Positions 2,654-31,830 of a DNA stretch of 34,749 nt are shown piece after piece. Positions within the stretch are counted from its first letter, which is position 1. Each line of letters begins with the position of its first letter. Origin of the DNA: Patescibacteria group bacterium (GTDB lineage: Bacteria > Patescibacteriota > Minisyncoccia > JAHISW01 > Tagabacteraceae); assembly GCA_018819015.1 (NCBI GenBank), contig JAHJQY010000004.1, positions 1-34,749 of the forward strand, read 5' to 3'. The position numbers were made by a program, and so were the translations under genes. The notes under the pieces are model-generated. The model saw only the letters and a list, made by a program, of their open reading frames with translations. It was not told the origin of the DNA and made no database searches.

Positions 2654-2689
2654 AACCCCGCGCCTTTGAAAAGGCGCGGGGTTTGTTTT
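2654..2689 (+). terminator. Intrinsic terminator
   Basis: AACCCCGCGCCTT-tgaa-AAGGCGCGGGGTT 13-bp stem followed by TGTTTT. Confidence 0.8.
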
Positions 2690-2704
2690 ATACTGGTTTT
2701 ATCC

Positions 2705-5191
2705 ATGTCTATGTTAACTAAAATTTTTGGCGACCATAACAAGCGTTTTTTAAAAGGCCTTCAGCCTTTAATTGGTTCAATAAATGACAAGGAGAAATCT
2801 TTTGAAAAATTATCCGACAGTGAATTGAAAGAAAAAACTTCCGGATTTAAAAAATTGATAGTTGAAGGCTGCGAGCTGGATGCTATTTTGCCGGAAGTTT
2901 TTGCTGTTGTTCGGGAGGCGGCCAAAAGAACTTTAAACCAGCGTCATTTTGACGTTCAGCTTCTGGGCGGCCTAGTTCTTCATCAGGGCAAAATCGCCGA
3001 GATGAAAACCGGCGAGGGAAAAACTTTAACTGCCACCCTGCCGATTTATCTGAACGCTCTTGAGGGCAAGGGAGTGCATGTTGTGACCGTGAATGATTAT
3101 CTTTCAAGGAGGGACGCGGTCTGGATGGGGCAGATTTACCACGCGCTCGGTTTGTCTGTCGGCTGCATAAATCATGAGGCCAGTTATCTGTATGACCCGA
3201 ATTCAAAACTTGATGAAGAGCGCGACATATTCGGTTCTTTTAAGGTAGTGCATGAATTTTTGAAGCCGTGCTCGCGCCAAGAAGCTTACGCGGCCGATAT
3301 CACTTACGGCACCAATAATGAATTTGGATTTGATTTTCTGCGCGACAGCATGGCTTATGGAAAAGATAATTTGGCTCAGCGAGGTTTTTATTATGCCATT
3401 GTTGACGAGATTGATTCAATTTTGATTGATGAAGCGCGGACACCGCTGATAATTTCAGCGCCGGATGAAGAATCGGCCGACCTTTATAAAACTTTTTCAA
3501 AAATCGTTCCCAATCTTAAAGAAGAGGACCTGTCTGCCCTGTCTGCCGACCAGGCAGGCGGTAGGCATGGACATTACGCAATTGACGAAAAACAAAAAGC
3601 TGTTTCAATAAACGAGGAAGGAATTGAAAAAGTTGAAAAAATATTGGGAATCAAGGATATTTATACGGAAAAAGGGATAAAATACGTGCATCATTTGAAT
3701 CAGGCTTTGCGGGCTCGGGTTTTTTTTAAGCGCGACCGGGATTATGTCGTAAAACCTGCCCGCCCGGGCGGGAGCAATGAGATAATAATAGTGGATGAAT
3801 TTACCGGCCGGCTGATGCCGGGCCGCCGCTGGTCAGAGGGGCTCCATCAAGCCATTGAGGCCCAAGAAGGGGTTTCTGTGCAAAAAGAATCGCGTACGCT
3901 GGCGAGCGTTACTTTTCAGAATTATTTCAGGATGTATAAAAAGCTTTCCGGCATGACCGGCACGGCGCTTACTTCGGCCGAAGAATTTTATAAAGTTTAC
4001 AGTCTTGAAGTTATTGCTGTTCCGACAAATAAAATTTTAATAAGAAAAGATAGTTCTGATTTGGTTTATCCGACAGAGCAGGGGAAGCTGAAAGCTGTTG
4101 TCGGGGAAATAAAAGAGCGGCACGAAAAAGGGCAGCCGGTTCTTGTCGGCACCGTTTCAATTGAGAAAAACGAATACTTGTCGGCTCTTTTAAAAAAAGA
4201 AGGAGTGCCGCATCGGCTTTTGAATGCCAAGCATCACGAGGAAGAAGGGGAGATTATCGCTCAGGCGGGCAAAAAAGGAATGGTGACGGTGGCGACCAAT
4301 ATGGCCGGTCGTGGCGTAGACATAGTTTTAGGGGGTAACCCTCAAAACCCCGAACAAAGTCGAATTGTTTGCGAGGCTGGAGGTTTGTACGTGATTGGTA
4401 CCGAGCGGCACGAGGCGCGGCGCATAGATAATCAGCTGCGCGGCCGTTCCGGCCGCCAGGGCGATCCGGGCGAGAGCAGATTTTTTGTTTCTTTGGAAGA
4501 TGATTTGATGCGTGTTTTTGGTTCGGAAAAAATAAAAAATATGATGGCTAGCATGGGCGTTCCGGAAGACCAGCCGATTGAGAATAAATTTGTTTCCCGG
4601 GCGATTGAGTCGGCGCAGGCAAAAATAGAGGGAATAAATTTTGACGCCAGAAAACACTTGCTTGAGTATGATGATGTTTTGAATAAACAGCGAGAAAAAA
4701 TTTACAAACTAAGGCGGGAAATTCTTTTTGCGGGGAAAAATGAATTGGATGAAATTATTGATGGGTTAAAGATGGAGGATAAGCCCGCCTTCGTCAAGAC
4801 TACGGCGGGCAAGGAGAAAGAATTCGGCGTGGAGCAATTTTTTGAAGTGAAGAGAAATGTTTTTTTGCGCGTGATTGATATGCTTTGGATAGACCACTTG
4901 GAAGTAATGGCCTATATGCGTTCTTCTGTCGGTTTGCGCGCTTATGGCAATCAGGATCCGCTGGTTGAGTATAAAAACGAGGGGATGAGATTATTTAAAG
5001 ATTTGGAAAGAGCCATCGGCGCGACTTTTGTTAGTTTGATTCAGAATGTGCAGAAACAGGAAAATCAGCCGCCAGTAGGAGTTGCGGCGGGCTTGCCTGT
5101 TAGAGATTCTACTACCGATGGAAAAGTCGGGAGAAATGATCCCTGTCCTTGTGGTAGCGGCAAAAAGTTCAAAAAGTGTTGCGGAATATAA
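2705..5191 (+). CDS. secA: Preprotein translocase ATPase SecA (start moved from 2666 to MSMLTKIFG)
   Basis: MKTGEGKT Walker A, VHVVTVNDYL, YAIVDEIDSILIDEARTPLIIS, DEFTGR, ATNMAGRG, RIDNQLRGRSGRQGDPG, C-terminal SEC-C motif CPCGSGKKFKKCC. The 2666 start lies inside the terminator. Confidence 0.97.
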   Translation: MSMLTKIFGDHNKRFLKGLQPLIGSINDKEKSFEKLSDSELKEKTSGFKKLIVEGCELDAILPEVFAVVREAAKRTLNQRHFDVQLLGGLVLHQGKIAEMKTGEGKTLTATLPIYLNALEGKGVHVVTVNDYLSRRDAVWMGQIYHALGLSVGCINHEASYLYDPNSKLDEERDIFGSFKVVHEFLKPCSRQEAYAADITYGTNNEFGFDFLRDSMAYGKDNLAQRGFYYAIVDEIDSILIDEARTPLIISAPDEESADLYKTFSKIVPNLKEEDLSALSADQAGGRHGHYAIDEKQKAVSINEEGIEKVEKILGIKDIYTEKGIKYVHHLNQALRARVFFKRDRDYVVKPARPGGSNEIIIVDEFTGRLMPGRRWSEGLHQAIEAQEGVSVQKESRTLASVTFQNYFRMYKKLSGMTGTALTSAEEFYKVYSLEVIAVPTNKILIRKDSSDLVYPTEQGKLKAVVGEIKERHEKGQPVLVGTVSIEKNEYLSALLKKEGVPHRLLNAKHHEEEGEIIAQAGKKGMVTVATNMAGRGVDIVLGGNPQNPEQSRIVCEAGGLYVIGTERHEARRIDNQLRGRSGRQGDPGESRFFVSLEDDLMRVFGSEKIKNMMASMGVPEDQPIENKFVSRAIESAQAKIEGINFDARKHLLEYDDVLNKQREKIYKLRREILFAGKNELDEIIDGLKMEDKPAFVKTTAGKEKEFGVEQFFEVKRNVFLRVIDMLWIDHLEVMAYMRSSVGLRAYGNQDPLVEYKNEGMRLFKDLERAIGATFVSLIQNVQKQENQPPVGVAAGLPVRDSTTDGKVGRNDPCPCGSGKKFKKCCGI
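3529..3570. repeat. Nested pair of 21-bp palindromic mini-elements in frame in secA
   Basis: CCTGTCTGC[CCTGTCTGCCGACCAGGCAGG]CGGTAGGCATGG; removing 42 bp restores ..KEEEHYAIDEK.. Confidence 0.75.
3759..3772. repeat. CCCGCC-n-GGCGGG palindrome in secA
   Basis: Perfect 14-bp palindrome CCCGCCCGGGCGGG encoding part of the extra peptide PARPGGS between DYVVK and EIIIVDEFTGR. Confidence 0.6.
4783..4810. repeat. CCCGCC-n-GGCGGG hairpin element in secA
   Basis: GCCCGCC-TTCGTCAAGACTAC-GGCGGGC encoding PAFVKTTAG, GC-rich in AT-rich context. Confidence 0.7.
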
Positions 5192-27112: not shown

Positions 27113-27769
27113 ATGGAAAAATTGAAACTGAAAGCTGAAAAAAGAGATATTTTTGGAAAGCCGCTTGTCAAAGCGCGGAATGCGGGCAAGATGCCGGCTG
27201 TTTTGTATGGAAGCGGCCGGGGAACAACTCCGATTTTTGTTGATTTTGCCGACTTCAAAAAAATTTGGTCAAAAGCCGGCGAGTCAGCCGTGGTTGATTT
27301 AGAATTGCATCAAAATGTTGTCCAGGTGCTTATTTATGATGTTGACAATGATCCAATAAGCCGCCAGCCTCGGCACGCCGATTTTTACGCGGCGGACATG
27401 ACAAAAGAAATTACCGCTTCTGTGCCGCTTGTTTTTATTGGTGAATCACCGGCGGTCAAGCTTGGCGGAGTGCTGGTTAAAGTTCTTTATGAAATTGAAG
27501 TGGAGGCCTTGCCAAAAGATTTGCCGCAGGAAATAAAAACGGATATATCCGTTCTTGAAAGTTTTGACGATAAAATTACGATAGGCGATCTGAAATTATC
27601 CGAAGGGGTAAAGGCGCTGCTGCCGTTTAATGAAGTAGTGGCATTGGTTGAAGAAACGAAAGAAGAGTCCTTCGACACGGCTCAGGATAAAGAACAGATA
27701 AACATGGAAAACATTGAAGTTGAGAAAAAGGGCAAAAAGCAAGAAGAAGAGGAGTCTAAAACCGAATAA
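27113..27769 (+). CDS. rplY: 50S ribosomal protein L25/Ctc (long form)
   Basis: PAVLYG, HADFY, VPLVFIGESPAVK.GG, EVEALP.DLP, acidic tail. Confidence 0.95.
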   Translation: MEKLKLKAEKRDIFGKPLVKARNAGKMPAVLYGSGRGTTPIFVDFADFKKIWSKAGESAVVDLELHQNVVQVLIYDVDNDPISRQPRHADFYAADMTKEITASVPLVFIGESPAVKLGGVLVKVLYEIEVEALPKDLPQEIKTDISVLESFDDKITIGDLKLSEGVKALLPFNEVVALVEETKEESFDTAQDKEQINMENIEVEKKGKKQEEEESKTE

Positions 27770-31297: not shown

Positions 31298-31657
31298 ATG
31301 ACTTTTTTGGAAGTTTTAATTTTGATATTTTTTCTGTCTCTAATCGGGATTATTTGTTTGTTTGGCTGCCGCGCTTATTTTAGCAGGCATCTGGACAACA
31401 AGGAGCTTTTGAAAGAAATTTCCTCCAGTAAGCCGCTTTTTTCATTTAAAATAAATTTAAGTTTTCTTTCCGGCCTGTTTCTTGGTTTGGCAAAAAAGTC
31501 GGAATTTTTTAAAAAACATTTTTTTAATTTTAAAGATTATGTGAACGGCAAGCACCCGGTGGAAAGCAGTGGCTGCAGGGGATATTGGGATAAATTGAAT
31601 GGTTGCAATGGGGATAAAAATAAAAAAGAAGATTGCCAGGATAGCTCAGTTGGTTAG
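31298..31657 (+). CDS. Hypothetical membrane protein (likely start ATG 31298)
   Basis: N-terminal TM helix; the stop codon falls inside the broken tRNA-Thr 5' half. Confidence 0.5.
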   Translation: MTFLEVLILIFFLSLIGIICLFGCRAYFSRHLDNKELLKEISSSKPLFSFKINLSFLSGLFLGLAKKSEFFKKHFFNFKDYVNGKHPVESSGCRGYWDKLNGCNGDKNKKEDCQDSSVG

Positions 31658-31674
31658 AGCAATGGTTTTGCCCG

Positions 31675-31767
31675 CCCCGTTAGAGCTGGAGTAGCTCAGT
31701 TGGTCAGAGCAACGGTTTTGTAAACCGTAGGCCGCGAGTTCGAATCTCGCCTCCAGCTCTAACGGGG
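31675..31767. mobile_element. Inverted-repeat-bounded cassette (CCCCGTTAGA ... TCTAACGGGG) enclosing the intact tRNA-Thr
   Basis: 10-bp perfect terminal inverted repeats at 31675-31684 and 31758-31767, directly abutting the tRNA ends; mobility is inferred. Confidence 0.45.
31685..31758 (+). tRNA. tRNA-Thr(UGU)
   Basis: GCTGGAG/CTCCAGC acceptor, ACGGT-TTTGTAA-ACCGT anticodon arm, GCGAGTTCGAATCTCGC T arm; CCA not encoded. Confidence 0.95.
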
Positions 31768-31794
31768 TAAATAGGTCGTGAGTTAATTATCCAA

Positions 31795-31830
31795 CCCCAA
31801 CTGTTCGAAGTTGAACTTCGAACATTGGGG
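31795..31830. repeat. TCGAAGTT(C/G)AACTTCGA palindrome, copy 3 (intergenic)
   Basis: CCCCAA-C-TGTTCGAAGTT-G-AACTTCGAACA-TTGGGG; nearly identical to the reverse complement of the comF copy. Confidence 0.85.

What the first reader, a model, noticed from the sequence alone, without database searches (positions are those of the whole stretch)
3529..3570. Element-in-element insertion in secA: two 21-bp units, exactly 14 codons
Seen: outer unit CCTGTCTGC|CGGTAGGCATGG (21 bp) is split by inner unit CCTGTCTGCCGACCAGGCAGG (21 bp, imperfect hairpin). Together they add the extra peptide read as DLSALSADQAGGRHG. Deleting 3529-3570 gives GAG GAA CAT TAC (..KEEEHYAIDEK..), a normal SecA preprotein-binding-domain sequence. 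Inference: the family inserts in 7-codon units and can target its own copies, which points to a sequence-specific, still recently active mechanism.
Basis: partly seen in the sequence, partly recalled or inferred. Interest (0 to 1): 0.62.

Follow-up and report, generated by a model that had tools for sequence, protein, structure and literature searches.

The report
Nested hairpin repeat translated inside secA
The 42 extra bases in secA are a copy of a tiny double-hairpin DNA repeat, one 20-21-base palindrome sitting in the exact centre of another, that occurs almost letter for letter in bacteria of more than ten phyla. Here it is simply read through as a 14-residue surface loop of an essential protein.

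Summary
Window 3529-3570 is 42 nt, in frame in secA, and adds 14 residues. All 15 related genomes and all 59 closest database homologs lack them.

The architecture is as described: a 21-nt unit lies in the centre of another 21-nt unit. Free copies of both unit types exist in this genome.

The nesting is not specific to secA. The same composite sits in two other genes of this 552-kb Patescibacteria genome. Its 40-nt form occurs 47 times in about 40 species of at least 10 phyla, with unrelated flanks.

The family's standard unit is the 20-nt palindrome CCTGCCTGCCGGCAGGCAGG (called P20 here), not 21 nt. It is present in 186 of 301 genomes of the class. The "7-codon units" reflect selection: only lengths divisible by three survive inside genes.

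Self-nesting is a real property of the family. There are double to quadruple nests and an excess of copies at the apex of other hairpins. Homologs of one glycosyltransferase gene also show both the "before" and "after" alleles.

The mobilising enzyme is not shown. P20 does not travel with the genome's four Y1 transposase genes. In relatives it lies just upstream of small GIY-YIG nuclease genes beside tRNA genes, but this genome has no such gene.

Verdict: a new variant of the REP/RPE-like hairpin repeat kind.

The parts
2705..5191 (+). secA coding sequence (828 aa; the open frame starts at 2666)
   Evidence: ORF list and translation. The own-genome protein P0002 has 828 aa and carries the SecA Pfam domains. 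It matches solved SecA structures at E = 1e-78.
3529..3570 (+). 42-nt composite (double-hairpin) insertion, translated as 14 extra residues
   Evidence: Sequence. Absent from 15 + 59 homologs. Folds as one long hairpin on the sense strand, RNA dG -25.3 kcal/mol. Predicted as a coil with pLDDT below 50 at residues 278-286.
3529..3537 (+). left arm of the outer unit (CCTGTCTGC)
   Evidence: Joined to 3559-3570 it gives CCTGTCTGCCGGTAGGCATGG, 1 nt from the free copy in thrS (C27:13813-13833).
3538..3558 (+). inner 21-nt unit (CCTGTCTGCCGACCAGGCAGG), a P20-T type with one extra C in the loop
   Evidence: Three identical copies in the genome, all nested. The 20-nt form without the extra C is common and mostly free elsewhere.
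3559..3570 (+). right arm of the outer unit (CGGTAGGCATGG)
3755..3772 (+). second, independent in-frame GC-rich palindrome in secA (CCTGCCCGCCCGGGCGGG, read as PARPGG)
   Evidence: Sequence. It is +6 aa relative to the closest homologs. A perfect 14-nt palindrome lies at 3759-3772.

Best explanation
The 42 nt are a dispersed copy of a tiny hairpin-type selfish DNA repeat.

**The family and the composite.** The basic unit is the 20-nt palindrome P20 (CCTGCCTGCCGGCAGGCAGG). A polar variant, P20-T (CCTGTCTGCCGACAGGCAGG), placed in the exact centre of a P20 gives a 40-nt double hairpin that folds as one 17-19-bp stem. In this lineage the composite gained one C in the loop. That 41-nt form was then copied to at least three genes: secA, an endonuclease Q (EndoQ)-family gene and a glycosyltransferase family 4 (GT4) gene.

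**The secA copy.** It landed in a short loop at the start of the preprotein-binding domain. It is 42 nt net, has no stop codon in this frame, and is translated as a disordered 14-residue loop. It persists because it is tolerated, not because it is needed.

**Shown:**
- it is an insertion, it keeps the frame, and it belongs to a repeat family;
- the composite is a discrete unit found across phyla;
- the family nests at hairpin apices.

**Inferred:**
- the composite entered secA ready-made (about 60%) rather than in two steps on site;
- movement goes through single-stranded hairpin DNA, helped in trans by a structure-specific nuclease. The best candidate is the small GIY-YIG nuclease whose gene carries P20 or the composite just upstream, beside tRNA genes, in relatives. 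That gene is absent here, so the copies in this genome are orphans.
For: - **Insertion and frame:**
- **Family in this genome:** 16 loci, 15 of them inside long ORFs of mostly housekeeping genes (leuS x3, valS, thrS, pth, ftsK, uvrD, secF and others). The uvrD and valS copies add exactly 7 aa compared with 8 (uvrD) and 3 (valS: G001, G004, G005) relatives; other valS homologs carry loops of their own at this site.
- **Composite in this genome:** three copies, all with the loop variant GACC. That variant is seen in none of the 47 copies elsewhere.
- **Composite as a discrete unit:** 23 identical 40-mers with unrelated flanks in Patescibacteria, Bacteroidota, Omnitrophota, Proteobacteria, Nitrospirota, Planctomycetota and Verrucomicrobiota.
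- **P20 in the class:** present in 186 of 301 genomes; the reversed control pattern gives 0.
- **Nesting at the apex:** P20-in-P20, at least 107 copies, with nests up to 4 levels. Inverted-repeat flanks: 12 of 122 observed against 1.3 expected. GT4 homologs show empty, 'family C hairpin only' and 'family C plus 14 aa composite in its centre' alleles.
- **Loop tolerated:** E. coli SecA has its own longer loop at the same point. The AlphaFold2 model gives a coil with pLDDT below 50 at 278-286.
- **GIY-YIG link:** a perfect P20 lies 20-95 nt upstream of 4 of 30 small GIY-YIG ORFs, each of three next to a tRNA gene and behind a duplicated tRNA 5' part. In 3 of 45 composite loci the composite occupies the same slot; a fourth locus has two P20 copies there.
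Against: - No enzyme has been shown to move P20.
- This genome has no GIY-YIG domain at all: Pfam search and a class-specific HMM (best E = 1.2).
- Small GIY-YIG genes are also common in class genomes without P20, so the link is partial.
- The characterised relative, SsnA, cuts outside its hairpin and is not known to integrate DNA.
- The outer arms of the three composites here differ at 3 positions while the inner unit is identical, and the secA outer arm matches the free thrS copy. This fits independent insertion of the inner unit into three older outer units about as well.
- No transcript or peptide data exist for this organism; the metatranscriptome runs hold none of the sequence.
Confidence: 0.8

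Rival explanations
1. Two-step nesting on site. A 21-nt outer unit first entered secA, adding 7 codons. The 21-nt inner unit later inserted into its centre, adding 7 more.
For: - Both units are 21 nt, so each step would keep the frame.
- The reconstituted outer unit is 1 nt from the free thrS copy. It differs from the outer arms of the other two composites at 3 positions, while the inner unit is identical in all three.
- Apex nesting is a demonstrated habit of the family.
Against: - The same architecture pre-exists as a discrete 40-mer in about 40 species.
- No free copy of the 21-nt inner variant exists in this genome; the only free inner-type copy lacks the extra C.
- The EndoQ copy carries half of the family C hairpin that surrounds the GT4 copy, which suggests the composite was copied together with its flank.
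- No 7-codon allele is seen among 74 homologs or in 4 metagenomes.
Confidence: 0.3
2. P20 and its composite are REP sequences moved by one of the genome's Y1 (RAYT-type) transposases.
For: - The genome has four Y1_Tnp genes, which is unusual for 552 kb.
- Other palindrome families here flank those genes and also sit in frame in genes.
Against: - Each Y1 gene is flanked by its own AT-richer perfect palindrome, never by P20.
- In 29 Y1 loci of high-copy relatives, P20 is never closer than about 750 nt and never on both sides.
- Four of the 12 genomes richest in P20 have no Y1_Tnp match at all.
Confidence: 0.12
3. The insert is kept for a function. It could be an adaptive SecA loop, or an mRNA or DNA hairpin that regulates secA (pausing, stability, DNA uptake signal).
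For: - All G-T wobble changes lie on the sense strand, so the hairpin stays intact there.
- The insert is present in all four metagenomes that hold the gene, with no empty allele seen.
- The P20 sequence is conserved across phyla.
Against: - The same sequence sits in unrelated genes in two reading frames, in an rRNA insertion and between genes. The peptide is therefore not the selected object.
- Loop length at this SecA site is invariant in 59 homologs.
- Only about 10-50 copies occur per genome, far fewer than uptake signals.
- The segment is predicted to be disordered.
Confidence: 0.08
4. The 42 nt are not translated. They would be skipped by the ribosome or removed from the mRNA.
For: The insert is a stable hairpin inside a coding region. 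Such inserts are bypassed in some mitochondria (own knowledge: Magnusiomyces 'byps', T4 gene 60).
Against: - The length is a multiple of three and the frame used is open.
- The in-gene copies whose net length could be measured against clean alignments also keep the frame.
- There is no stop codon or matched take-off and landing codon pair.
Confidence: 0.03

Closest known systems
Rickettsia palindromic elements (RPEs; Ogata et al. 2000, own knowledge)
   Same: A dispersed palindromic repeat inserted in frame into unrelated, often essential genes. It is translated as an extra surface segment and is absent from orthologs.
   Different: RPEs are about 100-150 bp and restricted to Rickettsia. Here the unit is 20 nt (40-42 nt when nested), is identical across many phyla, and nests in its own centre.
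REP/REPIN sequences with RAYT (Y1) transposases
   Same: A short imperfect palindrome present in many copies that forms hairpins as single strands. This genome does hold four such Y1 genes, each with its own flanking palindromes.
   Different: P20 does not flank any Y1 gene and is abundant in genomes without one. It lacks a conserved 5' tetranucleotide head. It lies mostly inside genes rather than between them.
Ssn nucleases (single-domain GIY-YIG, cd10448) with NTS/SRM hairpin repeats (Chenal et al. 2025, PMC11893778)
   Same: A hairpin repeat placed next to the gene of a small single-domain GIY-YIG nuclease and dispersed through the genome. The nuclease acts on single-stranded hairpin DNA.
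   Different: The sequence is different (SRM is ATTCCC-N8-GGGAAT with a CGTC head). SsnA cuts upstream of the hairpin, not at its apex. The P20-linked genes sit in tRNA-gene cassettes, and only some small GIY-YIG genes carry P20. This genome has repeats but no nuclease gene.
Mitochondrial hairpin elements: double-hairpin elements of Allomyces, yeast GC clusters (own knowledge), sponge repetitive hairpin-forming elements (PMC2800124, title and abstract only)
   Same: Very short GC-rich hairpin units that spread within AT-richer compact genomes. They enter coding regions in frame and can combine into double hairpins.
   Different: Those are organellar and lineage-specific, and each is confined to one group. 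P20 and the 40-mer are bacterial and shared across phyla.

Membership tests
RPE-like in-frame palindromic repeats | The same palindromic repeat lies in frame in several unrelated genes and is absent from orthologs | tested here: met
   secA, EndoQ and GT4 carry the composite. leuS, valS, thrS, pth, ftsK, uvrD and secF carry P20. Absence from orthologs was shown for secA, uvrD, valS, leuS and GT4.
RPE-like in-frame palindromic repeats | Element of about 100-150 bp belonging to the Rickettsia RPE sequence families | tested here: not met
   The unit is 20-21 nt and the composite 40-42 nt. The organism is a Patescibacteria bacterium (source names of the SecA homologs).
REP/RAYT (REPtron) | The repeat flanks a Y1 (RAYT) transposase gene | tested here: not met
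   The four Y1 genes of this genome are flanked by other palindromes. None of 29 Y1 loci in relatives is flanked by P20.
REP/RAYT (REPtron) | Genomes rich in the repeat encode the transposase | tested here: not met
   G045, G291, G207 and G026 have 28-48 pattern hits each and no PF01797 match.
Ssn/SRM system | The hairpin repeat lies beside the gene of a small single-domain GIY-YIG nuclease | tested here: inconclusive
   Met in relatives for a subset: 4 of 30 GIY-YIG loci. Among 45 composite loci, the composite lies beside the nuclease gene in 3 and P20 in a fourth. Not met in this genome, which has no GIY-YIG gene.
Ssn/SRM system | The nuclease belongs to cd10448 and the repeat matches the SRM consensus | tested here: not met
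   P20 does not match ATTCCC-N8-GGGAAT with the CGTC head. No CDD was available to assign cd10448; that part is not testable here.
Ssn/SRM system | The nuclease binds and cuts the repeat as single-stranded DNA | not testable with these tools
   This needs purified protein and oligonucleotides.
MITE (terminal inverted repeats plus target-site duplication) | A fixed-length target-site duplication flanks each copy | tested here: not met
   No common duplication in 16 copies here or 47 composite copies elsewhere. Only occasional microhomology is seen: GGAC at secA and CCTGCC at uvrD.

The most novel reading that the evidence does not exclude
P20-type hairpins may be the smallest mobile DNA units known. 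They would move as 20-nt single-stranded hairpins and integrate preferentially into the apical loop of any DNA hairpin, their own copies included. The result would be self-nested double to quadruple hairpins that then spread as new units within genomes and across phyla. In the densely coded Patescibacteria genomes, the variants whose length is divisible by three become permanent loops of essential proteins.
Probability: 0.35. Interest if true: 0.8.

Novelty: new variant of a known kind. Interest (0 to 1): 0.6.

Why it matters
Most dispersed hairpin repeats (REP, NTS/dRS3, RPE) have no known way of spreading. This family offers an unusually clean handle on that question:
- the unit is only 20 nt;
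- it is identical across phyla, which points to horizontal spread and a conserved recognition mechanism;
- it records its own target preference in its nests, always at the centre of a hairpin.

That makes a concrete, testable prediction for any candidate enzyme: it should cut and join at the hairpin apex of single-stranded DNA.

The finding also shows how ultra-small genomes with 93% open-frame content absorb selfish DNA. Only variants whose length keeps the frame survive, and they end up as disordered loops in proteins such as SecA, aminoacyl-tRNA synthetases and FtsK. Annotators and structure predictors should expect such loops.

Tried and rejected
- **Y1/RAYT as mobiliser:** searched this genome and 12 high-copy relatives. 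P20 is not at the flanks, and four of those genomes have no Y1 gene.
- **GIY-YIG partner in this genome:** none found with Pfam or with a class-specific HMM at maximum sensitivity.
- **Intermediate 21-nt allele of secA:** none among 15 related genomes, 59 database homologs or four metagenomes. The closest homolog is only 76-79% identical, so the test is weak.
- **Intermediate alleles of EndoQ:** the region is too variable to read.
- **Target-site duplication or target motif:** no consensus in the flanks.
- **Literature:** no paper holds the 20-mer or an 18-nt core. None combines Patescibacteria with in-frame palindromic repeats.
- **De novo hairpin creation by template switching:** rejected, because it cannot produce the same 40 letters in unrelated genomes.
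- **Arm doubling by slippage:** considered for the nests. Each level adds 9 nt on the left and 11 nt on the right, which is one whole 20-nt unit. The arms' own repeat period is 4 nt, so slippage is less likely, but it is not excluded.
Full report
**1. The observation**

Window 3529-3570 reads CCTGTCTGC CCTGTCTGCCGACCAGGCAGG CGGTAGGCATGG. It lies inside an open frame (2666-5191; the protein on record starts at 2705). The product is SecA: it has all SecA Pfam domains and matches solved SecA structures at E = 1e-78.

The 42 nt keep the frame and are read as LSALSADQAGGRHG. The inner 21-mer is not expected by chance: 0 matches in 100 shuffles.

Homologs lack the insertion:
- SecA of 15 related genomes lacks exactly these 14 residues.
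- The closest homologs among 5.8 billion proteins, 76% identical overall, lack them too.
- None of 59 homologs has any insertion at this point. The loop LKxxx-(D/H)Y has a fixed length in the group.

Four groundwater metagenomes from different studies hold the gene with the insert. No contig skips it. Contigs can hide rare variants, so this shows presence, not fixation beyond doubt.

**2. The family in this genome**

The window is contig C16 of a 552-kb, 29-contig Patescibacteria genome (names). I call the basic unit P20: CCTGCCTGCCGGCAGGCAGG, a perfect 20-nt palindrome.

- With its 1-3-nt variants it occupies 16 loci.
- Fifteen loci lie inside long ORFs: leuS (three copies), valS, thrS, pth, ftsK, uvrD, secF, a histidine kinase, a membrane protein, a glycosyltransferase family 4 (GT4) gene (two copies), an endonuclease Q (EndoQ)-family gene and secA.
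- One locus lies between rpsM and rpsK.
- About 93% of the genome is under an open frame of at least 100 codons, so 15 of 16 is what unbiased landing gives. The element is not kept out of genes.
- Nine of the 15 in-gene copies use the frame that reads LPAG(R/Q/K). Six use the frames that contain Cys.
- Seven of the 12 single in-gene copies are 21-nt variants with one extra base in the loop.
- The uvrD copy adds exactly 7 residues compared with 8 relatives. The valS copy adds exactly 7 compared with the three relatives that have no loop of their own at this site (G001, G004, G005).
- At uvrD the empty site (AAC CTG CCG in a relative) already contains CCTGCC, a 6-7-nt microhomology with the start of the element.
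- In leuS the net changes are about +14 aa and +12 to +14 aa. One copy sits at the junction of a deletion of about 30-45 aa.
- A second, different GC palindrome in secA (3755-3772) adds 6 residues.

So "7-codon units" is not a rule of the mechanism. It is what survives in a coding region.

**3. The composite in this genome**

The same nested arrangement occurs twice more, in the EndoQ-family gene (C11:7820-7860) and in the GT4 gene (C24:1739-1779). Both copies are in the sense direction. One uses the secA frame and one uses another frame (ACLPCLPTRQAAGR).

- The inner unit is identical in all three copies, 21 of 21 nt.
- The outer arms differ at three positions.
- The outer unit of the secA copy matches the free thrS copy to 1 nt.
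- The composite folds as one long hairpin. RNA dG is -25 kcal/mol for secA and -34 kcal/mol for EndoQ.
- All G-T wobble positions lie on the same strand, so the opposite strand folds 4-10 kcal/mol less well.

**4. Distribution**

*P20 in the class.* The pattern CCTGCCTG-N3-6-AGGCAGG is in 186 of 301 genomes of the same class (135 of 221 genera), with up to 48 hits per genome. The same pattern read backwards gives none.

*The composite across phyla.* Its core occurs in 45 loci and 47 copies in a set of 185,579 species. The hosts are Patescibacteria of several classes, Bacteroidota (including cultured Jiulongibacter, Terrimonas, Luteirhabdus and Thermobacterium), Mariprofundus, Gallionella, Gammaproteobacteria, Omnitrophota, Nitrospirota, Planctomycetia, Verrucomicrobiota and others.
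- Twenty-three copies are the identical 40-mer CCTGCCTGCCCTGTCTGCCGACAGGCAGGCGGCAGGCAGG.
- Five more differ only by the common C/T variant.
- The flanks are unrelated, so the 40-mer is a discrete unit in its own right.
- All 47 have the loop GAC. Only the three copies of this genome have GACC. The three copies therefore share a lineage-specific variant: either the composite was copied as a unit within this lineage, or the inner unit was copied three times into P20 centres.

*Other forms.*
- The inner type P20-T is mostly free elsewhere: 124 free against 4 nested in a capped sample of 128.
- A second composite, P20 inside P20, is even more common: at least 107 copies, 50 of them identical.
- Nests of three and four levels exist.
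- In one locus the 40-mer sits in the centre of a further P20-T (L167).

**5. Nesting is a habit of the family**

Four observations support this.
1. In every nest the guest splits the host after position 9. Because of a 1-nt ambiguity this may equally be exactly at the centre CC|GG. Each level adds one whole 20-nt unit.
2. Copies are flanked by inverted repeats of at least 6 bp, meaning they sit at the apex of a larger hairpin, far more often than shuffled flanks allow. Roughly half to three-quarters of the hosts, depending on the set, are the family's own copies; the rest are unrelated hairpins.

| Element set | Copies with inverted-repeat flanks | Expected from shuffled flanks |
|---|---|---|
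| P20-T | 12 of 122 | 1.3 (maximum 4 in 200 shuffles) |
| 40-mer composite | 3 of 27 | 0.4 |
| P20-in-P20 | 16 of 59 | 5 |

3. This genome gives a worked example. I call another repeat "family C": (C/T)CC(T/C)TCGAC-N3-GCTC(A/G)GG(G/A). It has about 25 copies, and its closing stem covaries (CCCT/AGGG, CCCC/GGGG, TCCT/AGGA).
4. The GT4 composite lies in the middle of a family C copy. GT4 homologs show all three states:
   - the empty site (DFLKD|GETGLF) in most homologs;
   - family C alone (DPS-NF/NS-SGQ-AP) in three;
   - family C with exactly 14 more residues in its centre, in this genome.

The EndoQ composite carries the right half of family C (GCTCAGGGTAAACC) but not the left half. This suggests it was copied, imprecisely, from a family-C-embedded composite.

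Ordinary landing sites such as secA show no hairpin and no shared motif. Apex landing is therefore a preference, not a requirement.

**6. What moves it**

*Y1 transposases.*
- The genome has four Y1_Tnp (RAYT-like) genes. Each is flanked by its own AT-richer perfect palindrome and none by P20.
- In 29 Y1 loci of high-copy relatives, P20 is never adjacent.
- Four of the 12 genomes richest in P20 have no Y1 gene.

*Small GIY-YIG nucleases.* Earlier notes of this scan pointed to small GIY-YIG genes beside tRNA genes, and I tested that lead.
- In 24 genomes of the class, small GIY-YIG ORFs (about 80-130 aa) are multi-copy.
- Four of 30 such loci have a perfect P20 20-95 nt upstream of the domain. 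By chance this would be about 0.003 per locus.
- In three of those loci a tRNA gene follows the ORF. In one of them (L097) a duplicate of that tRNA's 5' part, ending ...GGTAGA, precedes the hairpin; in another (L121) the sequence before the hairpin looks like the 5' half of a different tRNA-Leu.
- In three of the 45 composite loci the composite occupies the same slot next to a small GIY-YIG ORF. A fourth locus (L124) has two P20 copies in that slot and the composite about 1.2 kb away.

*Limits of the link.*
- Most small GIY-YIG genes lack P20.
- Such genes are also present in genomes without P20.
- This genome has no GIY-YIG domain at all, by Pfam and by a class-specific HMM at full sensitivity (best E = 1.2).
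- The characterised relative, SsnA of Neisseria, binds its hairpin as single-stranded DNA and cuts a few bases upstream. It does not cut at the apex and is not known to join DNA.

The mobiliser is therefore inferred, not shown, and the copies in this genome are orphans.

**7. Consequence for SecA**

The site is the loop between the helix that ends near residue 270 and the first strand of the preprotein-binding domain. E. coli SecA has its own longer loop at the same point.

An AlphaFold2 model built from 60 homologs (mean pLDDT 76.7, pTM 0.73) gives a coil with pLDDT below 50 for residues 278-286. The second insert also falls in a low-confidence turn. The composite has a stop codon in only one of its six frames, and not in the frame used. 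Read-through as a tolerated, disordered loop is the simplest account. No RNA or peptide data were available.

**8.

The description is right, and the idea that the family can enter its own copies is supported as a property of the family.

What is not supported:
- that the nesting took place in secA;
- that the unit is 7 codons by mechanism;
- that targeting is sequence-specific;
- that the element is still active here.

I put about 60% on arrival of a ready-made composite and about 30% on two steps on site. The heterogeneous outer arms and the match to the thrS copy keep the second reading alive.

**9. Comparison and novelty**

- It works like the Rickettsia palindromic elements, as in-frame selfish palindromes, but it is five times smaller and shared across phyla.
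- It resembles REP sequences but fails both REP/RAYT tests.
- It resembles the NTS/SRM repeats of Ssn nucleases in its link to a small GIY-YIG gene. However, its sequence, the tRNA cassette context and the apex nesting differ, and the defining biochemistry is untested.
- Mitochondrial double-hairpin elements are the nearest analogue of the nested form.
- No paper in the library holds the sequence or describes in-frame palindromes in Patescibacteria.
- Earlier agents of this scan had met the 20-mer ("LPAGRQ element").

I rate it a new variant of a known kind.

Noticed in passing
window 3755-3772: A second in-frame GC palindrome in secA (CCTGCCCGCCCGGGCGGG, read as PARPGG), +6 aa relative to the closest homologs. 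A relative (G004, L002) has a different 10-aa GC-rich insert at the same turn. Another relative (G005, L003) has a 7-aa CCCCGCC-GTT-GGCGGGG insert elsewhere in secA.
   Followed up: partly
window 2654-2683: A perfect 12-bp-stem hairpin (AACCCCGCGCCTTTGAAAAGGCGCGGGGTT) lies directly upstream of the secA start codon. It is probably the terminator of the preceding gene or a member of the CCCCGC...GCGGGG hairpin group seen about 15 times in the genome.
   Followed up: no
genome-wide; window 27668-27693; C24:1780-1791 + 1727-1738: A further repeat, called family C here: (C/T)CC(T/C)TCGAC-N3-GCTC(A/G)GG(G/A)(C/T)AA. It has about 25 copies and a covarying 4-bp closing stem. It is often in frame, read as PFDKLRA, PSTSSGQ or LRQAQGK. 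It hosts the composite in the GT4 gene.
   Followed up: partly
C17:18750-19391, C2:304-1023, C29:17016-17729, C29:21544-22242: Four Y1 (RAYT-like) transposase genes in a 552-kb genome. Each is flanked, and sometimes interrupted in frame, by its own perfect 23-33-nt palindrome. One of these palindromes also lies at window about 31800-31830.
   Followed up: partly
window 31635-31784: A complete tRNA-Thr, clamped by a 10-12-bp stem, sits after the anticodon-loop position of a broken tRNA-Thr. The layout is the same as the GIY-YIG/tRNA cassettes of relatives (5' tRNA part, insert, full tRNA) but without a nuclease ORF. It may be a footprint of such a cassette.
   Followed up: partly
C20:9276-11666 (leuS): LeuRS carries three P20 copies. 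One is at the junction of a deletion of about 30-45 aa relative to five relatives. There is also a further 58-aa deletion without a hairpin, in the region that follows the editing-domain entry.
   Followed up: partly
L047 (G048:C18) 1440-1640 and 2690-2920: In a distant class member, the composite and two P20 copies lie inside and beside an insertion in the 16S rRNA gene. They are flanked by AT-rich TTTGAGATTT-type repeats.
   Followed up: no
C24:2140-2200 and C20:10800-10860: P20 copies in GT4 and leuS are embedded in an AT-rich repeat (AATCTCAAATCTCAAA, read as SQISNLK). That repeat occurs without P20 at the same GT4 site in homologs.
   Followed up: partly
whole genome G000: No GIY-YIG domain of any kind was found, not even the UvrC-type ORF of about 400-500 aa that nearly all 24 class genomes checked have.
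   Followed up: partly
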